26,097 nucleotides of DNA from a virus: the UHGV virus genome UHGV-0386553; one strand, written 5' to 3'. A model generated the notes under the pieces. The model saw only the letters and a list, made by a program, of their open reading frames with translations. It did no database searches and was not told the DNA's origin. Both the position numbers and the translations under genes were made by a program. Every line of letters begins with the position of its first letter. The first letter of the stretch is position 1. Shown here one piece after another: positions 1 through 23,762 of this stretch.

Positions 1-683
1 GTATAATATGAGTTAAAAACAGCGGCATTTTTGCCTTTGGATATCAACTCCTTAATCATAAAAATATTATCTTCGTAATCAAAAGGAGAAATTATATCCC
101 TCATTTTGCTTTGAAATGTTCGTTGTCTTGCCCCGCTTCCTGACGGTATAAACCAACCAAAACCACCAACAACTCCGGCGATTGCAGCATCGACATAATT
201 ACGCATTGAGCGATTATTTACAGCATCCTGCTCAAGTGATGGATCTGCAAGGTTAGAAATTCTGTTTTGCTTTGCATCGTAATATTTTGCAAGCAAAGAT
301 GGTTTCATCAATGCACGTCTGAACCACCCAAAACATTGCTGGATCAGCATCGTCAGGTAGTCAAAAGCATCTTCATGCACTTCGGGGAAAAATTTTCCCT
401 GATTGCGAAGGTCTGTCTCCTGCACTACATCAAGCACACGATCTATCGTAATTCGCCATCCAGCAGCAAGCGGAGACGGAAGAACAACAGAACCGCCACT
501 ATAAGTGCCCGCCCCAGTTACCGTATAACCGGTATCCAGAACCAATTCTGTTACGTTCCCGTTCAGGTCAGACACCTGAACAACCAGGTCGGATTTTTTG
601 AAAATACGGAAGGTATACGGAAATGATGTCGTAACGCCGTTACCTGTGTATTCGTTGTGGTCAACTTCGGTTGAGACCGTCAT
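1..683 (-). CDS. Tail fibre / tailspike protein, N-terminal part; gene continues beyond the left edge of the window
   Basis: Manual reverse-strand translation from ATG at 681-683 (GGAG 8 nt upstream) gives MTVSTEVDHNEYTGNGVTTSFPYTFRIFKKSDLVVQV..., open to position 1. The pattern resembles the conserved N-terminal virion-attachment domain of podovirus tail fibres (T7 gp17-like). Absent from the ORF track because no stop lies in the window. Confidence 0.65.
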   Translation of the reverse strand, partial: MTVSTEVDHNEYTGNGVTTSFPYTFRIFKKSDLVVQVSDLNGNVTELVLDTGYTVTGAGTYSGGSVVLPSPLAAGWRITIDRVLDVVQETDLRNQGKFFPEVHEDAFDYLTMLIQQCFGWFRRALMKPSLLAKYYDAKQNRISNLADPSLEQDAVNNRSMRNYVDAAIAGVVGGFGWFIPSGSGARQRTFQSKMRDIISPFDYEDNIFMIKELISKGKNAAVFNSYY

Positions 684-786
684 GTTAAATCTCCAGATAG
701 TCGCAGCACCCGTTGCGCCGCATATCTGGCTATTCTATTACCTGAAAAACCACATATGGATAGAAATACTGTGAATACGAATAGAT

Positions 787-803
787 ATTACCTTTCAGGT
801 AAT
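787..803. promoter_or_regulatory. Operator-like inverted repeat, copy 1 (ATTACC-TTTCA-GGTAAT)
   Basis: Perfect 6-5-6 inverted repeat, about 90 nt upstream of the ORF starting at 879. One of five related copies in the window. Confidence 0.55.
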
Positions 804-839
804 TTGCAAAACGTGCTGGATAGCAAACAAATTATTTGT

Positions 840-859
840 TACTGTATAAATATACAGTT
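840..859 (+). promoter_or_regulatory. LexA (SOS) box
   Basis: tACTGTATAAATATACAGtt is CTGT-N8-ACAG and matches the E. coli LexA consensus TACTGTATATATATACAGTA at 18 of 20 positions. It lies 20 nt upstream of the ATG at 879, overlapping the likely promoter. Confidence 0.7.
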
Positions 860-878
860 ATTGCATGGAGAAGATAAG

Positions 879-1136
879 ATGCAGCAGTATCACTATCCAC
901 TGGAAGACGGATTTACCGAAAGGATTCACACGCCGGGAGGCGTCAGGTCACTGGTGGAGGGATCGCACTTGATGAAATTACTCCGGGATCTCGATAAGGA
1001 TGGATTTAATGTCGATGGCCCACTTGCCGAACTGACTGCACTGATTAACTACGTCACCAGCTCACAGATGTCTATGCGGGATCTGCAAACACATCTCGAC
1101 TATTGTGCCGAACAATTACGAAAGCAAACCACATAA
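879..1136 (+). CDS. Small protein (85 aa) homologous to the C-terminal domain of the Bro-N protein; candidate SOS-controlled antirepressor
   Basis: ATG at 879 with GGAG 8 nt upstream. The track ORF 756..1136 is shortened because the LexA box lies inside the longer frame. Product MQQYHYPLEDGFTERIHTPGGVRSLVEGSHLMKLLRDLDKDGFNVDGPLAELT...RDLQTH aligns by eye with residues about 150-220 of the Bro-N protein (roughly 40 percent identity). Confidence 0.6.
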   Translation: MQQYHYPLEDGFTERIHTPGGVRSLVEGSHLMKLLRDLDKDGFNVDGPLAELTALINYVTSSQMSMRDLQTHLDYCAEQLRKQTT

Positions 1137-1158
1137 AGAAAAGGCCGCAAGAGCGGCC
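1133..1158 (-). terminator. Intrinsic terminator for the leftward two-gene operon
   Basis: GGCCGC-AAGA-GCGGCC perfect 6-bp stem at 1143-1158; on the minus strand it is followed by TTTTCTTT. It sits between the convergent genes 879..1136 and 1160..1666. Confidence 0.55.
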
Positions 1159-1159
1159 A

Positions 1160-1666
1160 TTAACAGTCGAAAAATTCTGGGTCCCACAAACTTGCATCGC
1201 GCGGCATGGATTCTAACTTTTTCAGCCGCAAAATTCTGTCACACTCGACAACTAATTTTTGCTTCTGCTCGTCAATTTCTACTGTCTTATGTGCTGGTTC
1301 ATCCCAATAATCCAGAAGGAAGGCATGGCGTTCAGATGTGACCAGATAAATCACATACACGTCACTGGTTGGGATCTTTTTATGCTTGTTAGTGGTCTTG
1401 TCTTTCTTCCCAGACGCCCAGTTTTTCCAGCATTGTTCCGTACCGCTCTCACCAAACTTGTCAGTATAGTTTCCGATGTTTACATGAACGTGGCGTATGT
1501 GATATTCCAGCATCTCTTTCGGTGGATCCCGAAACAGAGTGTCCTTTCCGAAATCCTTATGATGACCGTAGCGCCAGTGATCTATGAACGCGTTTTTGAT
1601 AGGTATTAGCTCAGGGTCCTTCCCAAAAATTCCAGGGTGAACCAACCCCTGGAATTTATTCGGCAT
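1160..1666 (-). CDS. YafO-like toxin-domain protein (168 aa); putative toxin
   Basis: Track ORF 1160..1729; preferred start is the ATG at 1664-1666 (GGAG 10 nt upstream), which overlaps the last codons of the upstream gene. Motifs FGKDTLFRD, HIRHVHVNIGN and YVIYLVTSERHAFLLDYWDEPAHK recall E. coli YafO (FGRDALYDD, AHIHLAN, HLVYCQGAFDEQAWLLIAILKPEPHK). Comparison is from memory. Confidence 0.55.
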   Translation of the reverse strand: MPNKFQGLVHPGIFGKDPELIPIKNAFIDHWRYGHHKDFGKDTLFRDPPKEMLEYHIRHVHVNIGNYTDKFGESGTEQCWKNWASGKKDKTTNKHKKIPTSDVYVIYLVTSERHAFLLDYWDEPAHKTVEIDEQKQKLVVECDRILRLKKLESMPRDASLWDPEFFDC

Positions 1667-2183
1667 CGTCGTAGAGCTCCTGAGCCATATCTTCAGCAGT
1701 GCGTGCAAACATCCTGCGCGAGATTGCATGGGATTTCTCTACGGACATCTTTGGGACCTCATACATAACAAGTTGATGAGTTTTCTCATCAACTTGAAGT
1801 GGCTTGTATAAACGTTGCCACCTTTCGTTAATTTTATCCTTAAAGCCAGCGAAACCACTTTCCTGACTCTTGTATCCAAAATGAGATAAAGCCAAATTCC
1901 TTTCCATTTCATTCCTAATGTACTCAGCAAGGTTGCAGTGGAATACTTCCCCTTGTTTTTTTAGGCATGCTTCATGGTCTGTAACACTGTGACGGCTCTC
2001 ATATAAGTAAATGCGATAGGAATTTTTATTATCCTCTTCTTCATAATTTCTAATCGCATCAGCAGTTGCCATAGCTGCAGCGTAAGCGGCTGCTTCAATC
2101 ACCATCTCTTGCTCTTTTTCTTTTTCAGGCCTTTTCAAGGCAAAGCGTCTATGCCTCATCGCTGTAACTCTCTTCGTGTTCAT
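1656..2183 (-). CDS. Hypothetical protein (175 aa), basic N-terminus and acidic C-terminus; putative partner or antitoxin of the downstream YafO-like gene
   Basis: Track ORF 1656..2195 starts at TTG; the ATG at 2181-2183 gives MNTKRVTAMRH... Its 3' end overlaps the downstream start (ATGCCGAATAA). The C-terminus is acidic (ELYDDAE). No family recognised. Confidence 0.55.
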   Translation of the reverse strand: MNTKRVTAMRHRRFALKRPEKEKEQEMVIEAAAYAAAMATADAIRNYEEEDNKNSYRIYLYESRHSVTDHEACLKKQGEVFHCNLAEYIRNEMERNLALSHFGYKSQESGFAGFKDKINERWQRLYKPLQVDEKTHQLVMYEVPKMSVEKSHAISRRMFARTAEDMAQELYDDAE

Positions 2184-2319: not shown

Positions 2320-2336
2320 ATTACCTTTACGGTAAA
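2320..2336. promoter_or_regulatory. Operator-like inverted repeat, copy 2 (ATTACC-TTTAC-GGTAAA)
   Basis: Inverted repeat in the divergent region between the leftward operon and the Bro-N gene. A possible rightward promoter TTGAAA (2292-2297)-N18-TATTAT (2316-2321) overlaps it. Confidence 0.5.
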
Positions 2337-2369: not shown

Positions 2370-2391
2370 GGGCACTGGCAAAATCCAGTGC
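2370..2391. promoter_or_regulatory. Perfect 8-bp-stem hairpin (GGCACTGG-CAAAAT-CCAGTGCC) of unknown role
   Basis: Seen directly; it has no flanking T-tract on either strand, so it is not a typical terminator. The motif CACTGGCAAAA recurs at 2233-2243. Confidence 0.35.
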
Positions 2392-2602
2392 CGGGATTGG
2401 CGTTCCGGATTACTACAGAGGCACATATGCCGCATAAGCGGTTTTTTTATGTGTAAAGCGCACCTATTCTATGGTGGGCTGTGTGGGGGCACCGAAAGGT
2501 GCGCCGGGTTCCTTTGTAGCCGGTTACGCCAACCCTGCACAGTTCACCACCAACCGATTGGCGTCGGTAGTGGTGATTAACCTAACTACAAAGGTGATCA
2601 CT

Positions 2603-3289
2603 ATGACTGCTAACGTAACCCCATCTGTTTTTCATTTTGAATCAGAAGCAACCATTCGAGCCATTGTTATTGATGGAAATCCTTGGTTTGTTGCCAAAGA
2701 CGTTATTAAAGCTCTTCAACTGACAAACCCCACTATGTCAATAAAATCTCTTGATGATGATGAAAGGGCTAAATTTAACTTAGGCCGTCAAGGCGAAACC
2801 AATATTATCAACGAGTCAGGCCTCTACACACTGATCCTCCGCTGCCGCGACGCAGTGACACCAGGCACTATCCCCTACCGCTTTCGTAAATGGGTTACAG
2901 GTGAGGTTCTTCCTCAGATCCGTCGCACCGGAAGTTACATTAAAAACTCGCTCCCGCAGGAAGAACGCATAAAGATGGTTGCCGACCAGGTAGCCAACGC
3001 CACGGCGTCAGCAGTAATGCAGGCGATGAAGATAGAGAACAAAACCTACAGCGCCCCGCTGAAGCCCGGCTACCGCAGCCTGATTCATTCGCCGTCTGGT
3101 GTTCTCGGCCTGACGGAGAACTCACTGCTGATGAATCTGCTGAACCAGTTACAGGAAGACGGGCACGACGTATCGGGCGCGGCGGCGGAGCTGACCACCA
3201 TGTTCTGTTACATCGTTGGTGTGAGCAAATGCCTGCGTGATATCCAGACGCACGCGGAGTACATCAACGACAAGGCAGGGTTCTTCTGA
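2603..3289 (+). CDS. Bro-N domain protein (228 aa), antirepressor-like
   Basis: ATG at 2603 with AAGGTG RBS; the track ORF starts at 2471 but the upstream part is GC-rich leader. N-terminus VFHFESEATIRAIVIDGNPWFVAKDVIKALQL...NESGLYTLILRCR matches the Bro-N signature (F.F....R.....G..WF.A.DV...L; NESGLY.LIL). The C-terminal domain is paralogous to the product of 879..1136. Confidence 0.7.
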   Translation: MTANVTPSVFHFESEATIRAIVIDGNPWFVAKDVIKALQLTNPTMSIKSLDDDERAKFNLGRQGETNIINESGLYTLILRCRDAVTPGTIPYRFRKWVTGEVLPQIRRTGSYIKNSLPQEERIKMVADQVANATASAVMQAMKIENKTYSAPLKPGYRSLIHSPSGVLGLTENSLLMNLLNQLQEDGHDVSGAAAELTTMFCYIVGVSKCLRDIQTHAEYINDKAGFF

Positions 3290-3332: not shown

Positions 3333-3361
3333 TTGCAGACTGTGGGTGAATAGCGTACTAT
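3333..3361 (+). promoter_or_regulatory. Sigma70-like promoter of the 55-aa / 147-aa cassette
   Basis: TTGCAG (3333-3338), 17-nt spacer, TACTAT (3356-3361); operator copy 3 starts at the end of the -10. Confidence 0.45.
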
Positions 3362-3376
3362 TACCTTAAAGGTAAA
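3360..3376. promoter_or_regulatory. Operator-like inverted repeat, copy 3 (ATTACC-TTAAA-GGTAAA)
   Basis: Overlaps the -10/+1 region and abuts the AGGAGG RBS of the ORF starting at 3388. Confidence 0.55.
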
Positions 3377-3387
3377 GGAGGCGCGAT

Positions 3388-3555
3388 ATGACAGCGTTGA
3401 AAAATCGTACTCAGCACAATGAACAAGCCAAGCAATGCTGGGATGTCATTGGAAAAGTTATGCTTGGCCGCGCAAGCAAAGAGCGCGACAAGGATATGGT
3501 TTACCAGACAGGAACATCTTTCAGCGACTTCAAGGCGGCATTTCGCTCCAAATAG
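3388..3555 (+). CDS. Small hypothetical protein (55 aa)
   Basis: ATG at 3388 preceded by AAGGAGG at optimal spacing; manual translation MTALKNRTQHNEQAKQCWDVIGKVMLGRASKERDKDMVYQTGTSFSDFKAAFRSK, stop TAG at 3553-3555. Below the size cut-off of the ORF track. Confidence 0.45.
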   Translation: MTALKNRTQHNEQAKQCWDVIGKVMLGRASKERDKDMVYQTGTSFSDFKAAFRSK

Positions 3556-16576: not shown

Positions 16577-16596
16577 GTGGGTCTGTTACGACCCAC
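16577..16596 (-). other. Stem-loop immediately after the capsid gene (GTGGGTC-TGTTAC-GACCCAC)
   Basis: Perfect 7-bp stem between the capsid stop (16613) and the next start; no U-tract. Position is analogous to the T7 T-phi element after gene 10. Confidence 0.35.
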
Positions 16597-20594: not shown

Positions 20595-20611
20595 ATTACC
20601 CTTCAGGTAAG
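20595..20611. promoter_or_regulatory. Operator-like inverted repeat, copy 4 (ATTACC-CTTCA-GGTAAG)
   Basis: 16 nt downstream of a consensus -35 TTGACA (20574-20579); faces the rightward tRNA / Gp49-like unit. Confidence 0.5.
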
Positions 20612-20932: not shown

Positions 20933-20933
20933 G

Positions 20934-21009
20934 TGGCATTAGCTCAGTTGGACAGAGCAACCGCCTTCTAAGAGGTTGGTCGCAGGTTCGAATCCTGCAT
21001 GCCACGCCA
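20934..21009 (+). tRNA. tRNA-Arg (anticodon UCU, reads AGA)
   Basis: Manual cloverleaf: acceptor GTGGCAT/ATGCCAC, D-arm GCTC-AGTTGGACA-GAGC, anticodon loop CTTCTAA (U33, anticodon TCT, A37), T-arm GCAGG-TTCGAAT-CCTGC, discriminator G, encoded CCA. One G-A mismatch in the anticodon stem. Resembles E. coli argU. Confidence 0.8.
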
Positions 21010-21096: not shown

Positions 21097-21172
21097 AGCA
21101 GGACGCCATTGCGATGACTTCATGCTGTAAACCCGTACAGACACGGAAGGCATAACTCATTGCTTCCAGTTC

Positions 21173-21207: not shown

Positions 21208-21564
21208 ATGAACGACCAGCAAATCGAAAAAGAAATCGTTGAGAAAGGCAAAACCGCTCCGCGAGTTACGCCTCAATATATCGAAAGCATCATTCTTGAA
21301 GAGCATTTCTTTACTGCTTATGACGGCATTCGTGCTGCCAATATGGGCGTTGGCGATTCATGGACAGCGCATAAATCTACAGACCTCCTGACTTTCTGCG
21401 TACTGGTGCTGAAGAATGGCTTCACCGTCACCGGAGAGAGTGCCTGTGCAAGCCCGGAAAACTTTGATGCAGAAATTGGTCGGAAGATTGCCCGGCAGAA
21501 TGCTGTAAACAAAATCTGGATGCTTGAAGGTTACTTGCTGAAGCAGAAGTTAAGCGAGCAATAA
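21208..21564 (+). CDS. Gp49-like protein (phage N4 gp49 / Sf6 gene 66 family), 118 aa
   Basis: AAGGTGAG RBS; product contains LTFCVLVLKNGFTVTGESACASPENFDAEIGRKIA...KIWMLEGYLL, which matches my recollection of this family. Opposite strand to the structural genes. Confidence 0.55.
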   Translation: MNDQQIEKEIVEKGKTAPRVTPQYIESIILEEHFFTAYDGIRAANMGVGDSWTAHKSTDLLTFCVLVLKNGFTVTGESACASPENFDAEIGRKIARQNAVNKIWMLEGYLLKQKLSEQ

Positions 21565-23130: not shown

Positions 23131-23723
23131 TGATTGCCATCCTGACGTTCTTTCAGTCTCTTCCTGGCTGCCGCTATGCGATCAGCAATTGTCACATTCA
23201 CATTAACATCCAGACGTTCTTTGAACGCGTTGACATCAACATGCTTACCAATCAGCTCAAGGTTCTTCACCTTGTCAGGCCATTTAATTTTTTTGAGGAT
23301 TGTCTCTATCGAATCCTCGTTCATGTTCATGATGGTCGATGACAGATCAAAGCCACTAAGCGTAGTGCGCCAGATTTTCGGCCACTCACGGATTGGTTTA
23401 AGGCTCCCATCGTCGTTGAGGATATCGATCACGTCCATCTGGTCGATCTCCACCAGGCGCATGAGAACGTAATCAGCACTGACGCGCATTCGTTTGTTGC
23501 GCTCCTCCATCAACTCGGCAATCCGTTTTTGAATGCGTTCATCGCGCATCATGACACTGGCTTTAACTGCCGCTGTATTTGGGGAGAATCCTGCGTTAAT
23601 CGCTGCCTGAGTCTGGTTTTCAGGCGTTTTGATGTATGACTGGCAATAAGCCTCCTGCATTGCTGTTAGTGGCTTAAATTGCGTTGATTTGCGTTTATAG
23701 GTTTTAGGTTCAGCAGGCATCAT
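23127..23723 (-). CDS. Terminase small subunit, P27-type (about 198 aa from the Met-Met start)
   Basis: Track ORF 23127..23801; preferred start is MMPAEPKTYKRK... at 23721-23723 because the upstream in-frame codons are tandem DNA repeats. N-terminal region LTAMQEAYCQSYIKTPENQTQAAINAGFSPNTAAVKAS is the typical small-terminase HTH signature. Confidence 0.7.
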   Translation of the reverse strand: MMPAEPKTYKRKSTQFKPLTAMQEAYCQSYIKTPENQTQAAINAGFSPNTAAVKASVMMRDERIQKRIAELMEERNKRMRVSADYVLMRLVEIDQMDVIDILNDDGSLKPIREWPKIWRTTLSGFDLSSTIMNMNEDSIETILKKIKWPDKVKNLELIGKHVDVNAFKERLDVNVNVTIADRIAAARKRLKERQDGNQ

Positions 23724-23730
23724 AACCACC

Positions 23731-23762
23731 GTGGTAATAGTTACCGTTGTGGTAATAGTACC
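23731..23762. repeat. Tandem direct repeat GTGGTAATAGT(T)ACC x2, each containing the palindrome GGTAA-N3-TTACC
   Basis: Seen directly, just upstream of the terminase small-subunit start. Confidence 0.5.

What the first reader, a model, noticed from the sequence alone, without database searches (positions are those of the whole stretch)
787..1136. Near-consensus LexA box in front of a small gene paralogous to the Bro-N C-terminal domain: candidate SOS-inducible antirepressor
The 20-mer TACTGTATAAATATACAGTT (840-859) matches the LexA consensus at 18 of 20 positions and lies 20 nt before the ATG at 879. The 85-aa product aligns with the C-terminal about 70 residues of the Bro-N protein at 2603-3289 (Y..PL..G...IH.P.GV..L.E.S.LM.LL..L..DG..V.G...ELT.......RD.QTH, roughly 40 percent identity by eye). 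In Gifsy-type prophages and in phage 186 (Tum), LexA-controlled antirepressors located far from the immunity region trigger induction. This gene is a strong candidate for that switch, and the Bro-N fusion may be a second antirepressor.
Basis: partly seen in the sequence, partly recalled or inferred. Interest (0 to 1): 0.8.

Follow-up and report, generated by a model that had tools for sequence, protein, structure and literature searches.

The report
Known SOS-controlled phage antirepressor (Ant)

Summary
TACTGTATAAATATACAGTT (840-859) is the only LexA-consensus match in the window with 3 or fewer mismatches (none in 100 shuffles). It ends 19 nt before an 85-codon gene (879-1136). The product is 41% identical over 78 aa (E 2e-16) to the C-terminus of the Bro-N protein (2603-3289).

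The interpretation also holds, but the system is already described. The window is an epsilon15/phiV10-like (Uetakevirus) prophage at guaA in E. coli. The 85-aa protein matches the 'Anti-repressor protein' of Salmonella phage SPC32H (PDB 5D50 chain E, E 5e-47, about 86% identity). It sits in the same slot, divergent from the tailspike gene. The cognate Rep homologue has HTH hits only and no S24 peptidase hit. It lies about 3 kb beyond the window end.

CTGT-N8-ACAG is kept upstream of ant in 6 of 8 divergent phages and in 80 of 80 close relatives.

The Bro-N protein is 82% identical to ORF4 of phage vB_EcoP_ZX5, and identical over the C-terminal ~160 aa. Overexpressing ORF4 cut lysogeny about 1000-fold. 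It is preceded by isrK-like and C4 antisense RNAs, and the C4 loops are complementary to its ribosome-binding site.

New here: two antirepressors share one domain under different controls. Ant has no Pfam or NCBIfam model, and its PHROG family has no assigned function.

The parts
1..683 (-). 5' part of the tailspike/tail-fibre gene, divergent from ant (context)
   Evidence: RefSeq CDS in the 100%-identical E. coli GN02461 record ends its N-terminus here. SPC32H, epsilon15 and phiV10 have the same layout.
787..803 (.). Perfect palindrome ATTACCTTTCAGGTAAT, a predicted operator for the phage repressor Rep
   Evidence: The pattern ATTACC-N5-GGTAAT gives 8 matches in the window against 0.56 expected. 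It clusters around the rep gene of the same prophage. The homologous 17-mer in the epsilon15 GenBank record is annotated protein_bind 'repressor'. The half-sites are invariant in 8 phages. Binding has not been tested.
817..845 (+). Best-conserved candidate ant promoter: -35 TGGATA (817-822), 17-nt spacer, extended -10 TGtTACTGT (837-845)
   Evidence: CTGGATA and T.TG.TA.TGT are invariant columns in the 8-phage alignment. This is inference only: the consensus scan did not call a promoter here. An alternative -35, TTGCAA at 804-809, would put the LexA box at about +1 to +20.
840..859 (.). LexA (SOS) box TACTGTATAAATATACAGTT
   Evidence: 18 of 20 positions match the consensus, it is unique in the window, and there were 0 matches in 100 shuffles. 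CTGT-N8-ACAG is kept while the spacer varies in 6 of 8 divergent Uetakeviruses. It is intact in 80 of 80 close IMG/VR relatives.
867..870 (+). Shine-Dalgarno GGAG, 8 nt before the ATG
   Evidence: Read directly. GGAG is present in all 8 sequences of the alignment, shifted by one column in the two Klebsiella phages.
879..1136 (+). ant: 85-aa antirepressor, orthologue of SPC32H Ant, epsilon15 gp19 and phiV10 p24
   Evidence: PDB 5D50_E 'Anti-repressor protein' E 4.6e-47 over residues 2-85. The SPC32H gene 'ant' occupies the same position. PHROG 450 at 1e-47, labelled 'unknown function'.
1143..1158 (.). GC hairpin GGCCGCaagaGCGGCC between the convergent ant and YafO-like genes
   Evidence: Called as a terminator on the minus strand, followed by a T-run. 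On the plus strand no T-run follows, so termination of ant transcription here is only plausible.
2320..2336 (.). Second operator-like palindrome ATTACCTTTACGGTAAA, abutting the -35 of the isrK/C4/Bro-N promoter
   Evidence: One mismatch to the pattern. The promoter-like site TTTACA(2337)-17-CATAGT(2365) ends 7 nt before the isrK start.
2372..2448 (+). isrK-like small RNA with its own terminator
   Evidence: Rfam RF01394, 71 bits against a gathering score of 50. Terminator-like hairpin at 2429-2442 plus a T-run.
2467..2554 (+). C4 antisense RNA (P1/P7 immI type)
   Evidence: Rfam RF01695, 84 bits against a gathering score of 45, full length. Its segments CCUUUGUAG (2511-2519) and ACGCCAA (2526-2532) are complementary to 2586-2594 and 2558-2564.
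2558..2594 (+). C4 target sites: UUGGCGU (2558-2564) and CUACAAAGG (2586-2594), the latter covering the Shine-Dalgarno of the Bro-N gene
   Evidence: Exact complementarity found by script. This supports ATG 2603 as the true start rather than the RefSeq GTG 2483, which would place the CDS over the C4 RNA.
2603..3289 (+). Bro-N::Ant-like fusion (228 aa), second antirepressor
   Evidence: Bro-N PF02498 at residues 18-104. The C-terminus matches 5D50_E at 1.1e-13 and the small Ant at 2e-16. It is 82% identical overall to ZX5 ORF4, and the C-terminal ~160 aa are identical. ZX5 ORF4 was tested by overexpression.

Best explanation
The gene at 879-1136 is ant of an epsilon15/phiV10-like temperate podophage integrated at guaA in E. 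coli. In the lysogen, host LexA sits on the box at 840-859, which overlaps or directly follows the ant promoter, and keeps ant silent. DNA damage activates RecA, LexA cleaves itself, and Ant is made. Ant binds the phage repressor Rep, a protein with HTH hits only and no S24 self-cleavage domain. Ant breaks up Rep's DNA-binding tetramer, so the lytic genes are derepressed. The homology, the box, its conservation and the presence of Rep are shown here. LexA binding, SOS induction and the Ant-Rep contact are inferred from the SPC32H orthologue. A second protein (2603-3289) carries the same Ant domain behind a Bro-N domain. It is probably held off in the lysogen by a Rep operator at its promoter and by a C4 antisense RNA that pairs with its ribosome-binding site. 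That would give an SOS-independent or superinfection route to the same target.
For: There is direct homology to the crystallised antirepressor (5D50_E, E 4.6e-47). SPC32H 'ant' has the same position and orientation next to the tailspike gene. The LexA box is unique and non-random. Its half-sites are conserved over a variable spacer, and it is intact in 80 of 80 relatives. No other strong LexA box exists in the window or in the rest of the prophage. A Rep homologue lies in the same prophage (5D50_A, E 4e-42). It has HTH hits only and no S24 peptidase hit. [quoted passage not shown] It also says the Rep C-terminal domain mediates the Ant contact and that Ant is made after LexA self-cleavage. The 98%-identical phage ZX5 is induced by mitomycin C, from 10^7 to 10^9 PFU/mL. 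For the second copy.
Against: Nothing was measured for this E. coli phage. Its Rep is only 42% identical to the epsilon15/SPC32H Rep, whereas Ant is about 86% identical, so the pairing is assumed rather than shown. The promoter is not resolved: the consensus scan found none and two candidate -35/-10 pairs exist. In the two Klebsiella relatives the left half-site is ATGT, not CTGT, so LexA control may not be universal. The primary SPC32H papers were not readable here. Details of them rest on secondary citations and on my memory.
Confidence: 0.88

Rival explanations
1. In the E. coli phages the working antirepressor is the Bro-N fusion, as the ZX5 authors assumed. The small LexA-controlled gene would be redundant or would have another role.
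For: Only the Bro-N protein has been tested in an E. coli Uetakevirus (ZX5 ORF4). Rep has diverged to 42% identity from the Salmonella Rep.
Against: The small gene is intact and 98-100% identical in 80 close relatives, each with an intact LexA box. It is full length in homologues down to 62% identity. It is the only gene in the prophage with a strong LexA box, yet ZX5 is induced by mitomycin C. In phiV10 the Bro-N copy is the one truncated inside the Ant-like domain. SPC32H and epsilon15 lack the Bro-N module altogether.
Confidence: 0.07
2. The LexA-like palindrome is not a LexA site. It could be an AT-rich promoter element or a site for a phage protein, with ant controlled only by Rep through the operator at 787-803.
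For: A perfect Rep-operator-like palindrome lies 37 bp upstream. The left half-site is degenerate in the Klebsiella phages.
Against: The match is 18 of 20 and occurs nowhere else in the window. Conservation follows the LexA rule: CTGT and ACAG are fixed while the 8-nt spacer is free. The literature on the orthologue places it under LexA.
Confidence: 0.03
3. The real product is the 126-aa ORF starting at ATG 756, as some gene callers predict.
For: The ORF is open from 756. Database entries of 126-127 aa exist.
Against: The extension would be encoded across the operator and the LexA box. The upstream region aligns with indels and without codon-like conservation. A GGAG precedes ATG 879. The crystallised and annotated protein is 86 aa.
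Confidence: 0.02

Closest known systems
Ant/Rep/LexA switch of Salmonella phage SPC32H (Kim and Ryu 2013, J Virol 87:11775; Kim et al. 2016, PNAS 113:E2480; PDB 5D50, 5D4Z)
   Same: The antirepressor is orthologous (E 4.6e-47, about 86% identity). It has the same length and the same slot next to the tailspike gene. A LexA box lies in front of it, and Rep is homologous and lacks an S24 domain.
   Different: The host is E. coli. Rep is only 42% identical. This phage also carries a YafO-like pair and an isrK/C4/Bro-N::Ant module downstream of ant, which SPC32H and epsilon15 lack.
Phage 186 Tum and the Gifsy/Fels-2 LexA-controlled antirepressors (Shearwin 1998; Lemire 2011, PMC3121763)
   Same: The logic is the same. 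The repressor cannot be cleaved, and a small antirepressor gene far from the immunity region is repressed by LexA.
   Different: There is no detectable sequence relationship: no significant Pfam family, including the DinI-type domain. These are functional analogues only.
P1/P7 immI (c4 RNA-icd-ant) and Gifsy-1 isrK-anrP modules
   Same: The Bro-N::Ant gene is preceded by full-length Rfam isrK and C4 RNAs. The two single-stranded C4 segments are complementary to sites upstream of the gene, one covering its ribosome-binding site.
   Different: Here the regulated protein ends in the SPC32H-Ant domain. The module sits beside a second, LexA-controlled copy of that domain.
vB_EcoP_ZX5 ORF4 'anti-repressor' (PMC9782041)
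   Same: It is 82% identical to the window's Bro-N protein, with the C-terminal ~160 aa identical. The phage genus and the guaA integration site are the same.
   Different: That paper does not mention LexA at all. The ZX5 GenBank record annotates the small ant as hypothetical.

Membership tests
SPC32H-type Ant (epsilon15-like phage antirepressor) | Sequence homology to the crystallised Ant over its full length | tested here: met
   5D50_E E 4.6e-47, query 2-85 aligned to chain 3-86.
SPC32H-type Ant (epsilon15-like phage antirepressor) | Gene lies next to and divergent from the tailspike gene, away from the immunity region | tested here: met
   Rep is about 27 kb away in the prophage.
SPC32H-type Ant (epsilon15-like phage antirepressor) | LexA box at the ant promoter | tested here: met
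   18 of 20 match, unique in the window. It aligns with the box upstream of SPC32H ant.
SPC32H-type Ant (epsilon15-like phage antirepressor) | Cognate Rep homologue without a RecA-dependent self-cleavage domain in the same phage | tested here: met
   5D50_A E 4e-42. Pfam gives HTH families only and no Peptidase_S24. The gene lies outside the window.
SPC32H-type Ant (epsilon15-like phage antirepressor) | LexA binding and SOS-dependent expression | not testable with these tools
   Indirect only: the 98%-identical phage ZX5 is induced by mitomycin C.
SPC32H-type Ant (epsilon15-like phage antirepressor) | Ant tetramer binds Rep and releases it from DNA | not testable with these tools
   Known for SPC32H. 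Not tested for this Ant-Rep pair.
186 Tum / DinI-like antirepressors | Sequence membership (Tum/DinI-type domain) | tested here: not met
   No significant Pfam family. The only match was DUF724 at 17 bits against a cut-off of 38.
P1 immI-type C4-controlled antirepressor module (for the Bro-N gene) | C4 RNA upstream, with loops complementary to the downstream ribosome-binding region | tested here: met
   RF01695 84 bits. 9-nt and 7-nt exact complementarities at 2586-2594 and 2558-2564.
BRO family (Bro-N domain proteins) | Bro-N domain above the Pfam threshold | tested here: met
   PF02498, 72 bits against a cut-off of 25.6.

The most novel reading that the evidence does not exclude
E. coli, Enterobacter and Klebsiella Uetakeviruses carry two antirepressors built on the same Rep-binding (SPC32H-Ant) domain but wired to different inputs. 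The stand-alone Ant is under LexA/SOS. The Bro-N::Ant fusion is under a P1-immI-like isrK/C4 RNA circuit. Both sit behind Rep-operator-like palindromes, which would close a positive feedback loop (Rep represses its own inhibitor). More generally, the SPC32H-Ant fold would be an unnamed, portable C-terminal effector module. It is found behind Bro-N, AntA, Rha and ORF6N heads.
Probability: 0.45. Interest if true: 0.4.

Novelty: already known. Interest (0 to 1): 0.22.

Why it matters
The switch itself adds nothing new: it re-finds the SPC32H Ant/Rep/LexA mechanism in an E. coli relative. Two practical points remain.

First, there is an annotation gap. The family has no Pfam or NCBIfam model, and its PHROG family is labelled 'unknown function'. 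It is annotated 'hypothetical protein' in the top-listed hits among the 531 of 5426 complete E. coli genomes (about 10%) that carry this locus. A 2022 experimental paper on a 98%-identical phage never mentions LexA, and the phage's GenBank record annotates ant as hypothetical.

Second, the paired design is not described in the papers I could search. A LexA-controlled Ant sits next to an RNA-controlled Bro-N::Ant paralogue. This gives a clean genetic system for asking how one repressor integrates SOS and non-SOS induction signals.

Tried and rejected
The primary SPC32H and epsilon15 papers (PMC3807360, PMC4983836, PMC2698709) are not held. Mechanism details therefore come from papers that cite them and from the PDB entry names.

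Pfam and NCBIfam gave nothing for Ant.

I looked for other LexA sites. There is none within 3 mismatches in the window or in the rest of the prophage. The bare pattern CTGT-N8-ACAG also occurs at 16583 and 21125. Both have GC-rich spacers, and the site at 21125 has about 8 mismatches to the 20-mer by my count, so I judged both to be chance.

The consensus promoter scan found no sigma-70 site in front of ant. The promoter assignment rests on conservation only.

The IMG/VR scan returned only near-identical relatives among the 80 loci kept. Diversity therefore came from the 8 GenBank phages.

PADLOC, Pfam and NCBIfam gave no support for the RefSeq name 'YafO family toxin' for 1160-1666, and no defence-system assignment for it or its partner.

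I considered and rejected the 126-aa ORF from 756.

I did not run a structure prediction, because 86% identity to a solved chain makes it redundant.

Full report
**Observation.** The sequence is as described. TACTGTATAAATATACAGTT occupies 840-859 and differs from the E. coli LexA consensus TACTG(TA)5CAGTA at two positions. It is the only site within three mismatches on either strand of the window, and none appeared in 100 dinucleotide-preserving shuffles. GGAG lies at 867-870 and is followed by ATG 879. The reading frame ends at 1136, giving 85 codons. The product aligns without gaps to residues 147-224 of the 228-aa protein encoded at 2603-3289 (32/78 identical, E 2e-16). The N-terminal half of that protein is a Bro-N domain (PF02498, E 5e-20).

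**What the window is.** The region is 100% identical to a prophage in E. coli GN02461. That prophage is bounded by lysis genes next to yfgI on one side and by an integrase next to guaA on the other. The DNA matches phiV10, TL-2011b, vB_EcoP_ZX5 and other Uetakeviruses (epsilon15-like podophages) at 93-98%. The small gene corresponds to phiV10 p24 and epsilon15 gp19. It lies between the minus-strand tailspike gene (window 1-683) and the minus-strand virion genes.

**Identity of the small protein.** A search of PDB sequences gives one hit. It is chain E of 5D50, 'Anti-repressor protein', 86 aa, E 4.6e-47, aligned end to end. This is Ant of Salmonella phage SPC32H. The SPC32H GenBank record names the gene 'ant' (SPC32H_020), and it sits in the same place beside the tailspike gene.
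- Papers that cite the original work state that Ant is a tetramer which binds two Rep dimers and breaks the Rep tetramer.
- They also state that the Rep C-terminal tetramerisation domain makes the contact with Ant.
- In these Salmonella phages, Ant is made after LexA self-cleavage and inhibits the repressor by protein-protein interaction.
- From my own memory of Kim and Ryu 2013, LexA repression of ant was shown experimentally. I could not read the paper here.

**The cognate repressor.** About 3 kb beyond the right end of the window, the same prophage encodes a 194-aa protein. It matches 5D50 chain A, 'Repressor', at E 4e-42 and is 42% identical to the epsilon15 repressor. Pfam finds only HTH families in it and no S24 peptidase. 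It therefore has no recognisable self-cleavage module, which fits a need for an antirepressor.

**Is the LexA box functional?** I aligned the tailspike-ant intergenic region of eight phages from E. coli, Salmonella, Enterobacter and Klebsiella (mean column identity 75%).
- Six of the eight keep TACTGT and ACAGT exactly, while the eight bases between them vary (ATAAATAT, GTATTTAT, ATGTTTAT, ATAAGCAT, ACATATAT). This is the pattern expected for a LexA site.
- The two Klebsiella phages have ATGT in the left half.
- All 80 close relatives fetched from IMG/VR carry an intact box 19-20 nt before the start codon, again with changes confined to the spacer.
- No other strong box exists in the window or in the rest of the prophage. 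Two bare CTGT-N8-ACAG matches elsewhere have GC-rich spacers and look like chance.
- Phage ZX5, 98% identical here, rises from 10^7 to 10^9 PFU/mL with mitomycin C.

**Promoter geometry (inference).** The consensus scan calls no promoter in front of ant. The best-conserved candidate is -35 TGGATA (817-822), a 17-nt spacer, and an extended -10 TGtTACTGT (837-845). All of these positions are invariant columns, and this places the left half of the LexA box on the -10. A second candidate, -35 TTGCAA at 804-809, would place the box at about +1 to +20. Either way, LexA would block initiation.

**A second control element.** A perfect palindrome, ATTACCTTTCAGGTAAT (787-803), lies 37 bp upstream of the box.
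- The pattern ATTACC-N5-GGTAAT occurs 8 times in the window against 0.56 expected.
- It clusters around rep in the same prophage, including two copies that flank a TTGACA-17-AATTAT promoter just downstream of rep.
- The homologous 17-mer in the epsilon15 record is annotated as a repressor-binding site.
- If Rep binds here, it would repress its own inhibitor. This is a prediction only.

**The Bro-N paralogue.** Its C-terminal ~80 residues match 5D50_E at E 1.1e-13. The protein is 82% identical to ORF4 of ZX5, with the last ~160 residues identical. Overexpressing that ORF reduced lysogens from 10^9 to 10^6 and repressor mRNA by 75%. That paper never mentions LexA, and the ZX5 record annotates the small ant as hypothetical.

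Upstream of the gene, Rfam finds an isrK-like RNA (2372-2448, 71 bits) and a full-length C4 antisense RNA (2467-2554, 84 bits). The two unpaired C4 segments are exactly complementary to 2558-2564 and to 2586-2594. The latter covers the AAGGUG ribosome-binding site of ATG 2603. This is the phage P1 c4/immI arrangement. It also argues that the RefSeq start at GTG 2483 is wrong. An operator-like palindrome (2320-2336) abuts the -35 of the promoter that would start isrK.

The isrK-C4-Bro-N::Ant module is present in phiV10, ZX5, Tyrion and a Klebsiella prophage, but not in SPC32H or epsilon15. In phiV10 the fusion is truncated inside the Ant-like domain.

**Breadth of the domain.** A profile of the Ant domain finds only 64 clusters at 50% identity among 1.84 billion representatives. 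Most are stand-alone proteins of 80-95 aa. The longer ones carry Bro-N, AntA, Phage_pRha or ORF6N domains at the N-terminus. The domain has no Pfam or NCBIfam model, and its PHROG (450) is labelled 'unknown function'.

**Verdict.** Both the observation and the interpretation are right. The system is the published SPC32H-type antirepression switch, so it is not novel. The residual interest is threefold. One is the two-antirepressor design with separate SOS and RNA inputs. Another is the possible Rep feedback through the operator-like sites. The third is the annotation gap: the locus is present in about 10% of complete E. coli genomes and is labelled 'hypothetical protein' in the top-listed hits.

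Noticed in passing
window 1160-2183 (minus strand): A two-gene cassette (175 aa then 168 aa, overlapping by 11 nt) is inserted between ant and the Bro-N module, convergent with ant. RefSeq calls the second gene a 'YafO family toxin', but Pfam, NCBIfam and PADLOC give no significant match (PHROGs 9503 and 1651, function unknown). Only 5 of 80 close relatives carry it in this arrangement. An operator-like site (2195-2211, 2 mismatches) lies just downstream of its predicted promoter (TTGCCA 2242 ... TAGAAT 2213).
   Followed up: partly
window 2483 vs 2603: RefSeq starts the BRO-family CDS at GTG 2483 (268 aa), which would overlap the whole C4 RNA. The C4 loop is complementary to the Shine-Dalgarno of ATG 2603, so the 228-aa form is more likely.
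   Followed up: yes
L002 3840-4424 (phiV10 p23): The phiV10 Bro-N protein is identical to the window's up to ...SLLMN and then ends after an out-of-frame tail (RTTGMMYQARRRS). The Ant-like domain is therefore truncated in the type phage phiV10.
   Followed up: partly
L009 2690-2947, L008 2646-2903 and P0093/P0111/P0119/P0120: In the Klebsiella and some Enterobacter phages, the stand-alone Ant has the segment DGHDVSGAAAEL, which is identical to the Bro-N C-terminal paralogue. The E. coli and Salmonella Ants have DGFNVDGPLAEL instead. This could be gene conversion between the two paralogues or the ancestral state.
   Followed up: no
window 733-753: A block is invariant in all 8 phages: TTCTATTACC, then ~6 variable nt, then ACC, 2 nt, ATATG. 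It lies between the tailspike start and the operator, and contains one perfect operator half-site (ATTACC). It may be a tailspike promoter, a second Rep contact, or the IHF site annotated nearby in epsilon15. It remains unexplained.
   Followed up: no
window 3360-3376, 20595-20611, 23722-23756: Further ATTACC-N5-GGTAAT-like palindromes occur in front of the small gene at 3388, near the tRNA and portal region, and as a tandem pair inside the small-terminase gene. The epsilon15 record annotates repressor sites at comparable places. This suggests Rep touches many transcription units, not only the immunity region.
   Followed up: partly
window 20933-21006: A phage-borne tRNA gene (Rfam 63 bits; RefSeq annotates tRNA-Arg) is followed by a Gp49/Sf6 gene-66 family gene (21208-21564, PF13876). 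Both are on the plus strand, opposite to the flanking virion genes.
   Followed up: no
window 879-1136 vs L003 21497-22081: Ant is about 86% identical between the E. coli and Salmonella phages, whereas their Reps are only 42% identical. The operator half-sites look the same. The uneven divergence is unexplained. It could mean that Ant recognises a small conserved surface, or that it acts across immunity types.
   Followed up: no
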